64,000 nucleotides of DNA from an uncultured Eubacteriales bacterium (GTDB lineage: Bacteria; Bacillota; Clostridia; TANB77; UBA1234). Shown piece after piece: positions 9,548-36,041 of the stretch. Where the stretch lies: positions 26,895 through 90,894 of the forward strand of contig CAZNFG010000002.1 of the NCBI GenBank assembly GCA_964572605.1, in the 5' to 3' direction. How positions within the stretch are numbered: position 1 is the first letter of the stretch; every line of letters begins with the position of its first letter. A program made the translations under genes and the position numbers. The notes under the pieces are model-generated. The model did not search any database, was not told where the DNA came from, and saw only the letters and a list, made by a program, of their open reading frames with translations.

Positions 9548-9624
9548 GGATCTTTAGCTCAGTTGGTTAGAGCAACCGGCTCATAACCGGTTGGTCCGGG
9601 GTTCGAGTCCCTGAAGATCCACCA
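9548..9624 (+). tRNA. tRNA with CAT anticodon (elongator Met or, more likely, lysidine-modified tRNA-Ile2)
   Basis: 77-nt cloverleaf: acceptor ggatctt/aagatcc, anticodon loop ctCATaa, T-arm ggttcgagtcc, encoded CCA. The sequence closely resembles the Bacillus tRNA-Ile(CAU) as recalled from memory. Confidence 0.85.
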
Positions 9625-9644
9625 TGACTTTTTTTATATTTTTT

Positions 9645-9729
<85 letters not shown>

Positions 9730-17848: not shown

Positions 17849-17855
17849 AATATTA

Positions 17856-18052
17856 ACCCTACGAGGTGCGATTAGTTTGAGTGTTATTTAGAACCAACAC
17901 TAAGATTTAAGGGAGTTTGGTACTTCGAGTATTTAGTGTATGCTCAACCGTGAAAACTGATTGAGAAACCAATAAAATACTTGGGAGAACACCCACCTGT
18001 GTATGCAGGCTCTTAAATTAGCTCAGATGTACGGCCTATGTAGGGTTTTTAT
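17856..18052 (+). ncRNA. candidate structured small RNA (about 195 nt, 6S-RNA-like), closed by a long-range ccctac/gtaggg helix and a T-run
   Basis: It has its own promoter and no ORF. The 5' ccctac pairs with the 3' gtaggg, and tttttattt follows. Internal hairpins are present (gtacttcgagtat; cctgtgtatgcagg). It is convergent with the minus-strand gene. Confidence 0.35.
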
Positions 18053-30276: not shown

Positions 30277-32025
30277 ATGGAAGAGAAAGTTAAAATAACA
30301 ATTGATGGTAAAGAGTTAGAAGTACCAAAAACATATACAGTGCTAGATGCTGCTAGAAGTGCAGATATAGATATTCCAACACTTTGCCACCTTAAAGAAG
30401 TAAATGCAATAGGCGCATGCAGAATGTGTATCGTTGAAGTTGAAGGTGCACGTGGATTTGTAACATCTTGTGTAATGCCAGTTAGTGATGGTATGGTAGT
30501 TAGAACAAACACAAAAGCAATTAGAGATGCAAGAAAAGTTACATTAGAACTTTTACTATCGAACCATGTTAAAGAATGTCTATCTTGTTCAAGAAGTGGT
30601 AGATGCGAATTACAAACATTAGCAAAAAAATTAAATGTAACAGATATTGAATATGAAGGAGATATGACAAAAAGAGAAATAGATGACTTTTCTCCATCAA
30701 TAATTAGAGATACAAGTAAATGTATTCTTTGCAAAAGATGTGTTGCAACATGTAATAAAGTTCAAAATGTTGGTGCAATATATACAATTAATAGAGGTTT
30801 TAAATCTAAGATAGGAACAGCATGTGATAAGTCTTTAAACGATGTTCCTTGTAGTCTTTGCGGACAATGTATACAAGCATGTCCAACAGGAGCATTAAGA
30901 GAAAAAGACAATACAGATGAAGTTTGGGAAGCATTAAATAATCCAGAACTTCATGTATTAGTTCAGACAGCACCTGCAGTTAGAGTGGCAATTGGGGAAG
31001 AATTTGATATGCCAATTGGAACTTTAGCAACAGGAAAGATGGTAACATCACTTAAAAAATTAGGATTTGAAAAAGTATTCGATACAGATAGTGGTGCAGA
31101 CTTAACAATAATGGAAGAAGGAACAGAATTAATTCAGAGATTACAAAATAATGGAGTGCTTCCAATGATTACATCTTGTAGTCCAGGATGGGTAAGATAT
31201 GCAGAAGGACATTATCCAGAATTACTAAATCATTTATCTACAGCAAAATCACCACATCAAATGTTTGGGGCAATATTAAAAACATACTATGCAGAAAAAG
31301 TTGGATTAGATCCATCTAAGATATTTGTAGTATCTGTAATGCCATGTGTTGCTAAAAAAGCTGAATCAGAAAGAGAAGAAATGAAAGTTAATAACTTAAG
31401 AGATGTTGATGCTGTTATTACAACAAGAGAAGTAGCAAGAATGATGAGAGAAGCAGGAATAGATTTAGCAAAACAAGAAGAAGGAACATTTGATGATCCA
31501 ATAGGAGAAGCAACAGGAGCTGGAGCGATTTTTGGAACAACAGGTGGAGTTATGGAAGCGGCACTTCGTACAGTAAAAGAAATCTTAACAGGTGAAAAAC
31601 TAGATAAGTTAGATTTTGAAGAAGTTCGTGGAGAAAAAGGAATAAAAGAAGCTACAGTTAAAATGGGAGATAAAGAAGTAAGAGTTGCAATAGCACATGG
31701 ATTAGGTAATGCTAAAAAAATAATGGATATGATAAAAGAAGGAAATGCACCATATGACTTCGTTGAAATTATGGCATGCCCAGGTGGATGTGTAATGGGT
31801 GGAGGACAACCAATCTGTGATAGCAAGACAAGAGCAACTGTAGACGTAAGAGCGTTGAGAGCAGGGGCACTTTATAAATATGATAAAGAACTAACAATAA
31901 GAAAATCTCATGAAAACCCATTTATTAAGAAACTATATGAAGAGTTTTTAGAAAAACCAGGAAGCCACAAAGCACATGAGTTATTACATACAACGTACCA
32001 TGAAAGAAAATATTTTGAAGATTAA
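30277..32025 (+). CDS. hydA: [FeFe]-hydrogenase catalytic subunit HydA (M3-type: 2Fe-2S + 3x4Fe-4S + H-cluster domain)
   Basis: N-terminal 2Fe-2S ferredoxin, a His-ligated cluster and two 4Fe-4S motifs. H-cluster motifs L2 MPCVAKKAE and L3 EIMACPGGCVMGGGQP are present. L1 reads TSCSPGW at 31171-31191. Confidence 0.9.
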   Translation: MEEKVKITIDGKELEVPKTYTVLDAARSADIDIPTLCHLKEVNAIGACRMCIVEVEGARGFVTSCVMPVSDGMVVRTNTKAIRDARKVTLELLLSNHVKECLSCSRSGRCELQTLAKKLNVTDIEYEGDMTKREIDDFSPSIIRDTSKCILCKRCVATCNKVQNVGAIYTINRGFKSKIGTACDKSLNDVPCSLCGQCIQACPTGALREKDNTDEVWEALNNPELHVLVQTAPAVRVAIGEEFDMPIGTLATGKMVTSLKKLGFEKVFDTDSGADLTIMEEGTELIQRLQNNGVLPMITSCSPGWVRYAEGHYPELLNHLSTAKSPHQMFGAILKTYYAEKVGLDPSKIFVVSVMPCVAKKAESEREEMKVNNLRDVDAVITTREVARMMREAGIDLAKQEEGTFDDPIGEATGAGAIFGTTGGVMEAALRTVKEILTGEKLDKLDFEEVRGEKGIKEATVKMGDKEVRVAIAHGLGNAKKIMDMIKEGNAPYDFVEIMACPGGCVMGGGQPICDSKTRATVDVRALRAGALYKYDKELTIRKSHENPFIKKLYEEFLEKPGSHKAHELLHTTYHERKYFED

Positions 32026-32176: not shown

Positions 32177-34102
32177 ATGAAAAAAAATATAATCTTTATT
32201 ATAGTTATAATTTGTCTTCTAATTTCTAATGGGTATTTTATATGGAAAGATTATTCAAGTCAGAAAGAAATTGAAGTAATTCTTCCAAGTGGTGATGAAA
32301 TAGAATATGAAGAACCTAGTGGAGAAGCAGAGATTATTAAGGAAAAAATTGAAGAAGTCGTTGTAAAAGAAGAAATAAGTGAAGATGATAAAGATAAAGC
32401 TTTAGAGATATATAAAGAATATGATGTTATAGTATTTTATGCTGAACCGGAAGGAATATCAGCTGCAATTTCTGCTGCACGAAATGATAAAAAAATCTTG
32501 TTAGTGGAAAAAAGAGATGGACCTGGTGGTCTTATGACATATGGAATGCTTAACACAATAGATATGAATTATAATTTTGATAAAACACTTTTAAGCAAAG
32601 GAATTTTTGAGGAGTTTTTTGATAAAATTGAAAGACGAGTATCTTTTGATGTGAATACAGCAAAAAAAGCTTTTGAAGAAATGTTAGATAATGAAGAAAA
32701 TATTGATGTCCTGTATGATGTTAAAGAGATTAGGATTGGTTCGGATGGCTCTACAATAGAGTATGCAATTATAGATGATAAAAAATATGTTGCAAGTATG
32801 TATATAGATTGCAGTCAAGATGCTGATATTACTGCCGCTGCAGGTGGTGAATATGTTGAGGGCTGGGAAGATATAAATGAGAAAAATAGAGCAATGTCTG
32901 CTACATTAATAATTGCAATGAAAGATGTTGATTGGGATAAATGTTGTGAAGCAGTAAAAAAAGAAAATATTCCAAACACTGGGTATACTTCTGATAGTAT
33001 TTGGGCATTTGCAGATAGAACCAAAAATTATATTCCAAAGCAACCTCATATGAAATTAAAAGGATTAAATATTGGATTACAAAATGATAAAACAGTTTTA
33101 ATTAATTCTTTACAGATTATAAATGTTAATATGCTAGATAACAATGCAAAAGAAAAAGCATATGAAAAATGCGTTAAAGAGGCGGAAAATGTAGCAAAGT
33201 TCTTGTCTGAAAATATTCCGGGATTTGAAAATGCAACACTTGCTTATGTAGCTCCTGAATTTTACATTAGAGAAACAAGACATATTGTTGGTGAGAACAG
33301 ACTTACTGTAAAAGATATATTAGAATCTACTTATTCATATAATGCAATTGCAATGGCTTCATATCCAATTGATGTTCAAACAACAAGCATTTATGATTGG
33401 GGATATATTATTGGTGCACCAGATCAATATTATATTTCTATGGGAACAGTAATTCCAAAGGGTTTTACTAATCTTATGACAATTGGACGTTCGGGTTCAT
33501 ATACATCAATTGCAGCTGGTTCAGCAAGAGTAATACCAACGGGAATGACACTTGCTGAATCTGCAGGTGTTATTGCAGCAGTTTGTGTTGAACGTGGAAT
33601 AGACTTACAAAAGCTTTTAAATGAGAGTTTAATTAAAAGAGATGTTATAAACAGAATAAAAATGCAAGGAGTCTATTTGGAAAAAGAATCAAAGCCAGTA
33701 ATAGATGTGAATGGAAGATATTATGATTTTATAATAGAGATGTGTGAACTTGGAATATTAAGTTTAGGATATGATAATAAATTTAATCCAGATGATTATT
33801 TATCTGAGAGAGAATTTATTATTCTTACAAAAACATATTTAAAGAGAAACTTTTTAAGCGAAGATTTTTGGAATACAGATCATATAAATTTACTAGACGC
33901 AACTGAAGGCAATATTACTGCAAACCGTGCAAAAGAAATTTTGTATGATATAACAACATTTAGTATTGAAGACGAAACAATGAAAGAAAAAATTGAAAAC
34001 TATATTAATACTGTTGCTCCAATGGGAAATGACTATTTAAGCACGGTAAGAGTATATGAAATACTAAGATATTTTAAAAATTTCTTAATAAAAAATGTTT
34101 AA
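32177..34102 (+). CDS. FAD-dependent-oxidoreductase-like protein (PF12831-like fold) with N-terminal TM anchor and a degenerate dinucleotide-binding motif
   Basis: The Rossmann-like N-terminus reads VIVFYAEPEGISAAISAAR where GGGPAG is expected, followed by LLVEKRDGPGGL. 641 aa. Confidence 0.55.
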   Translation: MKKNIIFIIVIICLLISNGYFIWKDYSSQKEIEVILPSGDEIEYEEPSGEAEIIKEKIEEVVVKEEISEDDKDKALEIYKEYDVIVFYAEPEGISAAISAARNDKKILLVEKRDGPGGLMTYGMLNTIDMNYNFDKTLLSKGIFEEFFDKIERRVSFDVNTAKKAFEEMLDNEENIDVLYDVKEIRIGSDGSTIEYAIIDDKKYVASMYIDCSQDADITAAAGGEYVEGWEDINEKNRAMSATLIIAMKDVDWDKCCEAVKKENIPNTGYTSDSIWAFADRTKNYIPKQPHMKLKGLNIGLQNDKTVLINSLQIINVNMLDNNAKEKAYEKCVKEAENVAKFLSENIPGFENATLAYVAPEFYIRETRHIVGENRLTVKDILESTYSYNAIAMASYPIDVQTTSIYDWGYIIGAPDQYYISMGTVIPKGFTNLMTIGRSGSYTSIAAGSARVIPTGMTLAESAGVIAAVCVERGIDLQKLLNESLIKRDVINRIKMQGVYLEKESKPVIDVNGRYYDFIIEMCELGILSLGYDNKFNPDDYLSEREFIILTKTYLKRNFLSEDFWNTDHINLLDATEGNITANRAKEILYDITTFSIEDETMKEKIENYINTVAPMGNDYLSTVRVYEILRYFKNFLIKNV

Positions 34103-34128: not shown

Positions 34129-36041
34129 ATGAATTATAGAATAACAAATGGATCTGTATCTTTTGGTGCAGATACAATATTAGAAGAAATAAATATAGAA
34201 ATTAAAGATAAAGAAAAGATTGCGATTGTAGGACGTAATGGATCTGGAAAGACAACGCTTTTAAATGCTATCATAAATGAAGAATTATTAGAAGAAGGCA
34301 TTGGAGAAGATAAGTTTAATGTATATAGACAAGGCTCTCCTACAATTGGATATTTAAAACAAGTAAGTTTTAATAATGAAGATAAAACATTATTAGATGC
34401 AGTATTAGAAGAATATAAAGATGTTATTGAAGCAGAATTAAAGCTTGCACGTATTGAAGCAGAGCTTGCAAAAAATTCTACAGAAGAATTAGTTAGAGAG
34501 TATGCCAAAACACGTGATAGGTATGAAATGCTTGATGGATATGTGTATAAAAAAGAATATGAAACTATGATTAGAAAATTTGGCTTTTCAAAAGAAGAAG
34601 AAGGTAAAAGAATTTCTGAATTTTCTGGTGGACAAAAAACGAGAATTGCTTTTATAAAACTTTTAATTAGTAAACCTGATATATTGCTTTTAGACGAACC
34701 TACTAATCACTTAGATATTGAGACAATAGAATGGCTTGAGGGATATTTGAGAAATTATAAAAAAGCAATTGTAATAGTATCACATGATAGAATGTTTATA
34801 AATAAAATCGTAAGCAAGATTTATGAAATTGAATACGGAGTTACTACTGAATACAAAGGAAATTATGAAGACTTTGAAAGACAGAAAATAATGAACTATG
34901 AAAAACAACTTAAAGATTATGAATTTCAACAAAAAGAAATTAAGAGATTAATGAGTGTTGTTGAAAGATTTAGATACAAAGCAACAAAAGCTAAAATGGC
35001 ACAATCTAAATTAAAACAAATTGAACACATGGTAAAGATAAAAGAACCAAGCAGATATGATTTAAAAACATTTAAAACAAATTTTGATATTAAAATTGAA
35101 AGTGGAAAAAATGTATTATCTGTGAGTGATTTGAAAATTGGATATGATAATGTCTTGGCAAACGTTTCTTTTAATGTTTTTAAAGGACAAAAGATTGGCA
35201 TTATTGGTGCAAATGGAATAGGTAAATCTACACTTTTAAAAACTCTAATTGGAAAAGTTGAAAAATTACGGTGGAGATTATGAATTTGGATATAATGTTC
35301 AAAAAGAATACTTTGATCAAGATTTAGGTTTTTCTGATGACAATAAAACAATATTTGATGAATTTAAAGATACGTTTTTAAGACTAAATGATAGAGAAGT
35401 AAGAAGTGCACTTGCTGCATTTTTATTTACAGGCGATGATGTATTTAAAGAAATAAAAGTACTTTCTGGTGGAGAAAAAGTAAGACTTAAGCTTTGTGAA
35501 ATATTTAAAAAAGGTCCTAATCTACTAATACTAGATGAGCCTACAAACCATATGGATATACTCGGAAAAGAAAGCCTTGAAAGAATCTTACGGAGAATAT
35601 GAAGGTACAATTATATTTGTATCTCACGATAGATACTTTGTAAATAAAGTTGCAGACAGTTTATTAATATTTGAAAATGATGGTGTAAAATATTTTGGTG
35701 GAAAATATGATGAATACTTAAATAAAAAATATGAAAGTGAACAAATTGAAAAAGACAACATACAAAATGAAAACAATATCGTTAAACCCAAAAAAGAAAA
35801 TGATTATTTTTTGAATAAAGAAAAAATTAAAATGCAAAATAGAATTAAAAAAATAGAATCAGAAATAAGTTTGCGAGAAGAAGAACTTAAAAGTTTAACA
35901 GAAGAAATGGAAAAAGAAGAAGTTTACTCAGACTATATTGCACTAACTAATTTGCAAGAACAAATCAAAGCAAAAAATATTGAAATAGAAGAATTCATAA
36001 ATGAGTGGGGAGAAATAAATAAAAAATTGGGAGATAACTAA
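34129..36041 (+). CDS. ABC-F family ATPase (two nucleotide-binding domains, no TMD; translation-factor/antibiotic-resistance type); frame interrupted twice at CGG 35269-35271 and 35591-35593
   Basis: NBD1 carries GRNGSGKTT...LSGGQKTR...LLLDEPTNHLD. NBD2 carries GANGIGKST, with the continuations GGDYEFGYNVQ and GEYEGTIIFVSHDRYF each in the +1 frame after a cgg. A C-terminal coiled-coil tail is present. The three ORF fragments concatenate to about 637 aa. Confidence 0.8.

What the first reader, a model, noticed from the sequence alone, without database searches (positions are those of the whole stretch)
31171..31191. HydA H-cluster motif L1 reads TSCSPGW instead of the canonical TSCCPGW
In the [FeFe]-hydrogenase catalytic subunit, motifs L2 (MPCVAKKAE) and L3 (EIMACPGGCVMGGGQP) are canonical. 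L1 is encoded as aca tct tgt agt cca gga tgg, with Ser (agt, 31180-31182) at the second of the two adjacent cysteine positions. In prototypical enzymes the first Cys of the pair is the proton-relay residue and the second ligates the [4Fe-4S] subcluster; that residue assignment is recalled from the literature. One of the two functions is therefore altered here. A single T-to-A change (tgt to agt) would produce this, so it may be natural variation of the kind reported in sensory or bifurcating enzymes, or it may be a point error.
Basis: partly seen in the sequence, partly recalled or inferred. Interest (0 to 1): 0.5.

Follow-up and report, generated by a model that had tools for sequence, protein, structure and literature searches.

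The report
Natural serine ligand in hydrogenase active site
The hydrogenase gene really does encode serine where textbook enzymes have an iron-binding cysteine. This is a common natural variant, already described in a working enzyme of the same type, not a sequencing error.

Summary
Window 31171-31191 encodes TSCSPGW in a 582-aa [FeFe]-hydrogenase HydA (30277-32025), the last gene of a hydC-hydB-hydA operon.

Ungapped alignments place Cys301 on the CpI proton-relay Cys299. They place Ser302 (agt, 31180-31182) on CpI Cys300, the [4Fe-4S]H ligand. All other H-cluster ligands and the proton-pathway residues are conserved.

It is not an error:
- Five independent samples carry the identical codons.
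- All 120 closest database homologues read TSCSP[GA]W.
- 41 of 51 related genome loci have Ser, encoded by AGY in close relatives and TCN in distant phyla.
- About 17-20% of family cluster representatives have Ser at this position.

It is already known:
- The best PDB match, Acetobacterium woodii HydA1 (7Q4V), has the same motif.
- Katsyv et al. 2023 describe Ser301 as a ligand of the H-cluster cubane in an active, electron-bifurcating enzyme with a normal infrared signature.
- Kertess et al. 2017 noted Ser in about 20% of sequences, although CrHydA1 C115S fails.

A modest addition from this work: Cys and Ser have interchanged at least three times in this sample, including once inside the window's own clade.

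Verdict: an ordinary member of a known variant, of low interest.

The parts
27831..28319 (+). hydC: NuoE-like thioredoxin-like [2Fe-2S] subunit, 162 aa
   Evidence: Pfam PF01257, E=4e-52. A HydC homologue lies upstream of hydB-hydA in related loci.
28399..30261 (+). hydB: NuoF-like flavoprotein subunit, 620 aa. It has an N-terminal [2Fe-2S] domain, an FMN/NADH-binding domain, the NuoF [4Fe-4S] region and a C-terminal 2x[4Fe-4S] ferredoxin domain.
   Evidence: Pfam PF01512, PF10589, PF01257 and Fer4 families. The best PDB hit is A. woodii HydB 7q4v_B, 972 bits, E=8.5e-292.
30277..32025 (+). hydA: [FeFe]-hydrogenase catalytic subunit, 582 aa, M3 architecture ([2Fe-2S], His-ligated [4Fe-4S], 2x[4Fe-4S], H-domain, small-subunit-like C-terminus)
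   Evidence: Pfam PF02906 (E=7.5e-102), PF02256, PF13510, PF10588 and PF22117. The best PDB hit is A. woodii HydA1 7q4v_A, 698 bits. Accessory-cluster ligands are conserved.
31171..31191 (+). H-cluster motif L1, TSCSPGW (residues 299-305)
   Evidence: The same motif occurs in A. woodii HydA1.
31177..31179 (+). Cys301 (tgt), equivalent to the CpI Cys299 proton-relay residue; retained
   Evidence: Ungapped alignment and residue mapping
31180..31182 (+). Ser302 (agt), equivalent to CpI Cys300, T. kivui Cys299 and A. woodii Ser301; the inferred oxygen ligand of the [4Fe-4S]H subcluster
   Evidence: for the alignment. Katsyv et al. 2023 describe the homologous Ser301Aw as a ligand of cluster A1. 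The codon is identical in five independent samples.
31339..31365 (+). H-cluster motif L2, MPCVAKKAE (Cys357 corresponds to CpI Cys355; Lys360 to Lys358)
31765..31812 (+). H-cluster motif L3, EIMACPGGCVMGGGQP (Cys501 corresponds to CpI Cys499; Cys505 to CpI Cys503, the bridging ligand to the di-iron site)
27669..27742 (+). Terminator-like hairpin (27669-27701) after the upstream GGDEF gene, followed by a promoter-like site (27713-27742). This suggests hydCBA is its own transcription unit.
   Evidence: Consensus scan only. The counts do not exceed those from shuffled sequence, so this is weak.

Best explanation
The gene encodes the catalytic subunit of a trimeric, NuoE/NuoF-coupled [FeFe]-hydrogenase of the HydABC electron-bifurcating type. 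It belongs to a large natural subgroup in which the first cysteine ligand of the [4Fe-4S] part of the H-cluster (CpI Cys300) is a serine.

The adjacent Cys301 keeps its role as the proton relay to the azadithiolate bridge. Ser302 takes the ligand position and most likely binds the cubane iron through its oxygen. Cys357, Cys501 and Cys505 supply the other three ligands, and Cys505 bridges to the di-iron site.

The enzyme is expected to be a normal, active, bidirectional hydrogenase, like A. woodii HydABC, which has the same TSCSPGW motif.

What is shown here: the residue homology, the conservation, the operon context and the reliability of the base call. What is taken from a published homologue (54% identical): Ser as a ligand, and activity. 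What is inferred only: any tuning of the cubane potential by the O-ligand.
For: - Motif and frame.
- Ungapped alignment gives S302 = CpI C300 = Tk C299 = Aw S301 and C301 = CpI C299. The other ligands (C357, C501, C505) and the proton pathway (E281, E284, R288, S321) are conserved.
- The best PDB hits for HydA and HydB are both subunits of A. woodii HydABC, and that HydA1 reads ITSCSPGW.
- Katsyv et al. [quoted passage not shown]
- Kertess et al. 2017 (PMC5855289) say Ser occurs at this position in about 20% of analysed sequences.
- 120 of 120 nearest homologues have TSCSP[GA]W.
- 41 of 51 related genome loci from Clostridia, Oscillospiraceae, Omnitrophota, Planctomycetota, Spirochaetia and others have Ser, with both AGY and TCN codons.
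- 25 Ser against 103 Cys among the 50%-identity cluster representatives, and all 25 keep the relay Cys.
- Identical codons in five independent samples.
- hydC-hydB lie upstream of Ser-type hydA in nearly every related locus with enough upstream sequence.
Against: - No direct evidence for this particular protein: no expression, activity or spectroscopy data.
- The Ser-Fe bond in the A. woodii enzyme comes from a cryo-EM model, and at that resolution the ligand atom is not proven.
- The engineered equivalent in the algal enzyme (CrHydA1 C115S) loses most of its [4Fe-4S] cluster and all activity. Ser is therefore not a generally tolerated replacement, and the structural feature that permits it here is not identified.
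- My crude covariation scan found no strictly coupled second-site residue.
- Identity to A. woodii HydA1 is only 54%.
Confidence: 0.88

Rival explanations
1. Sequencing or assembly point error: the true codon is tgt, giving canonical TSCCPGW.
For: tgt and agt differ by one base. The window contains a gene with two frameshifts (ABC-F, 34129-36041), which could have hinted at a low-quality assembly.
Against: The same agt codon occurs in five independently assembled samples, four of which differ from the window at another site in the gene. All 120 nearest homologues and 41 of 51 related genomes encode Ser, with six different Ser codons. The ABC-F frameshifts are themselves reproduced exactly in independent assemblies, so they are not evidence of sloppy base calling.
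Confidence: 0.01
2. Register shift: the single remaining Cys301 ligates the [4Fe-4S]H cluster in place of the missing Cys. Ser302 is a bystander, and the canonical proton relay is lost or replaced by water or Ser.
For: [quoted passage not shown] The cryo-EM map of the A. woodii enzyme may not discriminate between O and S ligation.
Against: The authors modelled Ser301Aw as the ligand. They report normal Hox, Hred, HoxH and Hhyd infrared states and high activity. From general knowledge of C-to-S/A relay variants of CpI and CrHydA1, these states and this activity depend on an intact relay Cys. All 25 Ser-type cluster representatives keep the Cys at the relay position, and Ser rather than Ala or Gly is selected at the ligand position across both codon families. 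Both facts argue that the hydroxyl itself is functional.
Confidence: 0.07
3. A degenerate, catalytically inactive or purely regulatory hydrogenase paralogue (sensory HydS-like).
For: Non-canonical L1 motifs are typical of putative sensory groups. The eLife 2013 Melainabacteria paper treated TSCSPGW copies as deviant, but those copies also lacked a Cys in L3.
Against: No PAS or other signalling domain is present. The protein has the full M3 architecture plus the small-subunit-like C-terminus. The relay Cys, all other ligands and the proton-pathway residues are intact. It is the only hydrogenase motif set in the window and sits in a hydCBA operon. The nearest characterised enzyme with the same motif is a highly active bifurcating hydrogenase.
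Confidence: 0.03

Closest known systems
Acetobacterium woodii HydABC(D) electron-bifurcating [FeFe]-hydrogenase, HydA1 (PDB 7Q4V/7Q4W/8A5E; Katsyv et al. 2023, PMC10021017)
   Same: Identical L1 motif, ITSCSPGW, with Ser at the ligand position (Ser301Aw corresponds to Ser302 here). The M3 domain architecture is the same. It is the best PDB hit for both HydA (698 bits) and HydB (972 bits). NuoE-like and NuoF-like partner subunits are present.
   Different: Only 54% identical in HydA. The source is an unnamed 30% G+C organism whose nearest genome matches are uncultured Clostridia from animal guts, not an acetogen isolate. No HydD-like subunit was looked for. L2 is MPCVAKKAE rather than MPCTAKKYE. 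Activity is untested.
Thermoanaerobacter kivui HydABC (PDB 8A6T) and Thermotoga maritima HydABC (7P5H)
   Same: The trimeric complex type and HydA fold are the same. T. kivui HydA is 53% identical.
   Different: T. kivui has canonical TSCCPSW with Cys299 as the ligand.
Clostridium pasteurianum CpI (PDB 4XDC/3C8Y), the prototypical monomeric M3 [FeFe]-hydrogenase
   Same: 47% identical and collinear over 570 residues. The accessory clusters, L2, L3 and the proton pathway are the same.
   Different: CpI has Cys300 as the ligand, is monomeric and ferredoxin-dependent, and has no HydB/HydC partners.
Engineered CrHydA1 C115S (the same position in the Chlamydomonas enzyme; Kertess et al. 2017, PMC5855289)
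   Same: The same Cys-to-Ser exchange at the homologous ligand position.
   Different: The engineered variant loses most of its [4Fe-4S] cluster, does not accept the di-iron site and is inactive. The natural Ser enzymes are conserved under selection, and at least one (A. woodii) is fully active.
Relay-position L1 variants in the family sample (I take these, from my own knowledge, to include the putative sensory Group C/D HydS enzymes)
   Same: They are also natural deviations from TSCCPxW.
   Different: There the first Cys of the pair is replaced and the ligand Cys is kept. Examples in the family sample are SC, GC, AC, QC, WC and DC at the pair. Here it is the reverse. No signalling domain is present here.

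Membership tests
[FeFe]-hydrogenase catalytic subunit (HydA, M3 architecture) | H-domain (Pfam Fe_hyd_lg_C, PF02906) above the gathering threshold | tested here: met
   340.6 bits against a cut-off of 22.1
[FeFe]-hydrogenase catalytic subunit (HydA, M3 architecture) | L1 motif TSCCPxW, holding both the relay Cys and the ligand Cys | tested here: not met
   The motif reads TSCSPGW: the relay Cys is present and the ligand Cys is replaced by Ser. The strict motif is not a true family boundary. About 17-20% of family clusters have Ser, and so does a characterised active enzyme.
[FeFe]-hydrogenase catalytic subunit (HydA, M3 architecture) | L2 MPCxxKxxE and L3 ExMxCxxGCxxGGGQP, holding the three remaining Cys ligands | tested here: met
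   MPCVAKKAE and EIMACPGGCVMGGGQP. C357, C501 and C505 map to CpI C355, C499 and C503.
[FeFe]-hydrogenase catalytic subunit (HydA, M3 architecture) | N-terminal F-domain ligands: [2Fe-2S], His-ligated [4Fe-4S] and two ferredoxin-type [4Fe-4S] clusters | tested here: met
   C37, C48, C51, C65 and H97, C101, C104, C110 map to the CpI ligands. Pfam PF13510, PF10588 and PF22117 match.
[FeFe]-hydrogenase catalytic subunit (HydA, M3 architecture) | Proton-transfer pathway residues (CpI C299, E279, S319, E282, R286) | tested here: met
   C301, E281, S321, E284 and R288
Electron-bifurcating HydABC-type trimeric hydrogenase | An adjacent NuoF-like HydB with an FMN/NADH domain plus an N-terminal [2Fe-2S] and a C-terminal 2x[4Fe-4S] domain | tested here: met
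   Pfam domains of ORF 28399-30261. Full-length match (residues 29-619) to A. woodii HydB.
Electron-bifurcating HydABC-type trimeric hydrogenase | An adjacent NuoE-like HydC | tested here: met
   PF01257, E=4e-52, ORF 27831-28319
Electron-bifurcating HydABC-type trimeric hydrogenase | Coupled reduction of NAD(P)+ and ferredoxin by H2 (flavin-based bifurcation) | not testable with these tools
   This needs a biochemical assay. It is inferred only from homology to A. woodii and T. kivui HydABC.
Ser-ligated H-cluster subgroup (A. woodii HydA1 type) | Ser at the position homologous to CpI Cys300 / T. kivui Cys299, with the relay Cys retained | tested here: met
   S302 corresponds to Aw S301 and C301 to Aw C300
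Ser-ligated H-cluster subgroup (A. woodii HydA1 type) | The Ser oxygen actually bound to a cubane iron | not testable with these tools
   Modelled so in the A. woodii cryo-EM structure according to the paper. No coordinates or spectroscopy are available here.
Sensory [FeFe]-hydrogenase (HydS, Groups C/D) | Relay Cys replaced (my own knowledge of the HydS groups) | tested here: not met
   The relay Cys301 is present.
Sensory [FeFe]-hydrogenase (HydS, Groups C/D) | A C-terminal PAS or other signalling domain (my own knowledge of the HydS groups) | tested here: not met
   Pfam shows only hydrogenase and Fe-S domains.

The most novel reading that the evidence does not exclude
The Cys/Ser choice at the first cubane ligand may be a recurrent, reversible evolutionary switch in HydABC-type hydrogenases. 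It is reached by single-base steps from TGY to either AGY or TCY, and it may tune the potential or stability of the [4Fe-4S]H subcluster rather than being neutral. Natural near-neighbour pairs would then allow the permissive context to be mapped and would explain why CrHydA1 C115S fails. One such pair is the Ser-type L010 and the Cys-type L013, which are 71% identical and are sister sequences in 200 of 200 bootstrap trees inside the window's own clade. The window's enzyme would be one convenient Ser-type representative.
Probability: 0.3. Interest if true: 0.4.

Novelty: already known. Interest (0 to 1): 0.15.

Why it matters
For annotation, TSCSPGW should not be read as a broken or inactive hydrogenase, nor as a sequencing error. 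Applying the TSCCPxW motif strictly would wrongly discard roughly a fifth of the family.

For enzymology, the natural Ser-type enzymes stand in unexplained contrast to the inactive engineered C115S algal enzyme. Oxygen ligation of the H-cluster cubane could affect its potential and hence catalytic bias in bifurcating complexes. That question is already posed in the literature, and this gene adds only one more example.

Tried and rejected
1. Point error. Rejected: the codons are identical in five independent samples and Ser is conserved in all near homologues.
2. Alignment offset. Rejected: the alignments to CpI, T. kivui and A. woodii are ungapped around L1, and the resulting numbering reproduces the paper's Cys299Tk/Ser301Aw.
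3. A second, canonical hydrogenase in the window that would make this copy redundant. A six-frame motif scan found only one L1/L2 pair in the 64 kb.
4. A compensating second-site residue strictly coupled to Ser. A column-by-column comparison of 25 Ser-type and 103 Cys-type cluster representatives found only weak tendencies (Ile rather than Phe at 298; Gly rather than Ala at 304) and nothing diagnostic. The method is crude and not corrected for phylogeny.
5. Naming the source organism. The cluster look-up returned no accession or name.
6. The downstream FAD-dependent oxidoreductase (32177-34102) as part of the system. It is not found next to hydA in any of the 51 related loci, so it was left out.
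7. Promoter and terminator scan. Counts were no better than in shuffled sequence, so it is used only as a weak hint.
8. Literature search for 'serine ligand' with H-cluster. It returned only the Katsyv paper as relevant. The search for TSCCP with serine added nothing on this position.

Full report
**The observation**

Window 31171-31191 reads aca tct tgt agt cca gga tgg. It lies in frame in a 582-codon ORF at 30277..32025(+), whose product contains ...LPMITSCSPGWVRYAEG..., MPCVAKKAE and EIMACPGGCVMGGGQP.

**What the gene is**

- Pfam gives the full set of domains of an M3-type [FeFe]-hydrogenase: Fer2_4, NADH-G_4Fe-4S_3, Fer4_Nqo3, Fe_hyd_lg_C (340 bits) and Fe_hyd_SSU.
- The two genes immediately upstream are a NuoE-like [2Fe-2S] protein (27831-28319) and a 620-aa NuoF-like flavoprotein (28399-30261). 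The flavoprotein has an extra N-terminal [2Fe-2S] domain and a C-terminal 2x[4Fe-4S] domain.
- This is the hydC-hydB-hydA arrangement of trimeric, NAD(P)- and ferredoxin-coupled hydrogenases.
- The best solved-structure matches for HydA (7q4v_A, 698 bits) and for HydB (7q4v_B, 972 bits) are both subunits of the Acetobacterium woodii electron-bifurcating HydABC complex.
- A six-frame motif scan finds no other hydrogenase L1/L2 pair in the 64 kb.

**Which residue is changed**

The phmmer alignments to CpI (4XDC), T. kivui HydA (8A6T) and A. woodii HydA1 have no gap near L1. A residue map gives:

- Query C301 = CpI C299, the proton relay.
- Query S302 = CpI C300 = T. kivui C299 = A. woodii S301.
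- C357, C501 and C505 = CpI C355, C499 and C503.
- The proton-pathway residues E281, E284, R288 and S321 are all conserved, as are the accessory-cluster ligands.

The Ser is therefore truly homologous to the cubane-ligating Cys. There is no offset, and everything else around the active site is canonical.

**Not an error**

- The exact protein, or a D271N variant, is encoded in five independently assembled samples (one ENA assembly and four Logan assemblies of different runs). In all five the 21 bases of L1, including agt, are identical. Four of the five differ from the window at nucleotide 811 of the gene, so they are not copies of the same record.
- All 120 nearest database homologues (75-100% identity) read TSCSPGW (117) or TSCSPAW (3).
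- Of 51 related loci from species-representative genomes, 41 have Ser. They span Clostridia, Oscillospiraceae, Monoglobaceae, Omnitrophota, Planctomycetota, Spirochaetia, Auribacterota and FCPU426.
- The Ser codon is AGT or AGC in the closer Clostridia relatives (61% identity or more) and TCT, TCC, TCA or TCG in the more distant lineages. Ser is therefore maintained across both codon families.

**How common it is**

I ran a full HMMER scan of 1.84 billion cluster representatives and mapped the best 149 usable hits onto the query. At the relay/ligand pair, 103 are Cys-Cys and 25 are Cys-Ser, which is about 17% of the 149 mapped hits and about 20% of the 128 that have a Cys at the relay position. 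All 25 Ser-type sequences keep the relay Cys. A different class of variants (S, G, A, Q, W or D at the relay position, with the ligand Cys kept) also appears. That class is not the one seen here.

**Already known**

- Katsyv et al. [quoted passage not shown] - Kertess et al. 2017 (Chem Sci; PMC5855289) mutated the same position in the Chlamydomonas enzyme (C115 in their numbering). The S, A and D variants lost most of the [4Fe-4S] cluster and all activity. [quoted passage not shown]
- A 2013 metagenome paper also recorded TSCSPGW in candidate-phylum hydrogenases.

**Most likely mechanism**

Ser302 supplies an oxygen ligand to one iron of the [4Fe-4S]H subcluster. Cys301 remains the proton relay. 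The enzyme works as an ordinary HydABC hydrogenase. The homology, conservation and gene context are shown here. Ser ligation and activity are taken from the 54%-identical A. woodii enzyme. Any effect on cluster potential is inference.

The main rival that is not formally excluded is a register shift in which Cys301 binds the cluster. It is disfavoured by the normal catalytic and infrared behaviour of the A. woodii enzyme. It is also disfavoured by the strict retention of Cys at the relay position and of Ser, rather than any small residue, at the ligand position.

**What this analysis adds**

- Wherever enough upstream sequence is held, nearly all Ser-type hydA genes sit behind hydC-hydB.
- In bootstrapped neighbour-joining trees of 54 sequences, at least three Cys/Ser changes are needed in 200 of 200 replicates.
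- A Cys-type sequence (L013, TGT) is sister to a Ser-type one (L010, AGT) in 200 of 200 replicates, and lies inside the window's own clade in 198 of 200.
- Both AGY and TCY are one base from TGY. The pattern therefore fits repeated single-step exchange between Cys and Ser.
- No second-site residue is strictly coupled to the Ser state.
- These points are suggestive only: they rest on neighbour-joining, a small sample biased toward the query, and no correction for phylogeny.

**Verdict**

The feature is a documented natural variant carried by a sizeable fraction of the family, including a structurally and spectroscopically characterised enzyme. It is an ordinary member of a known kind and its interest is low.

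Noticed in passing
window 34129-36041 (+): An ABC-F type ATPase gene is split into three overlapping ORFs (34129-35283, 35249-35602, 35535-36041) by two shifts of reading frame in the same direction, near 35265 and 35590. The DNA is 100% identical in two independent Logan assemblies (L056 and L053), so this is a real pseudogene or an unusual recoding site rather than an assembly error.
   Followed up: partly
window 22307-22457 (+): A glmS ribozyme/riboswitch (82 bits) lies directly upstream of glmS (22498-24312). This is the ordinary arrangement.
   Followed up: no
window 17853-18050 (+): A 6S RNA gene (Rfam RF00013, 76.8 bits). There are also tRNA-Met and tRNA-Tyr at 9548-9729, tRNA-Thr at 20707-20782, and tRNA-Trp at 52582-52655 on the minus strand.
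   Followed up: no
window 31087 (nucleotide 811 of hydA): The only polymorphism among five samples of this gene is G/A, giving D271N, in the conserved FDTD(S/F)GAD stretch of the H-domain. Four samples have Asn; the window and one other sample have Asp.
   Followed up: no
L049 8001-9767 and 15132-16865 (uncultured Spirochaetia contig): One contig carries two complete hydC-hydB-hydA sets a few kb apart. One has Ser-type L1 (TSCSPGW, TCT) and the other Cys-type (TSCCPAW). The two forms therefore coexist in one genome.
   Followed up: no
L006-L019 (for example L006 2333-3112): In the AGY-Ser clade of Monoglobaceae, Oscillospiraceae and Roseburia-like genomes there is an extra distant HydA-like stretch (23-27% identity over about 260 aa) some 5 kb upstream of hydA. 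About 1 kb of additional coding sequence also lies between hydC and hydB. It may be a sensory hydrogenase or regulator module. It is absent from the window's operon.
   Followed up: no
proteins P0159, P0216, P0259 (cluster representatives): Rare family members have no Cys at either L1 position (SSSSPAW, SSASPAW, ATHSPAV) but keep the three other Cys ligands.
   Followed up: no
protein P0121: A 4122-residue predicted protein matches the hydrogenase in seven separate stretches (2017 bits). It may be a tandem array or an assembly or gene-calling artefact.
   Followed up: no
window 32177-34102 (+): A 641-aa FAD-dependent oxidoreductase (PF12831) follows hydA after 151 bp with no terminator-like site detected. 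It is not found next to hydA in any of the 51 related loci.
   Followed up: partly
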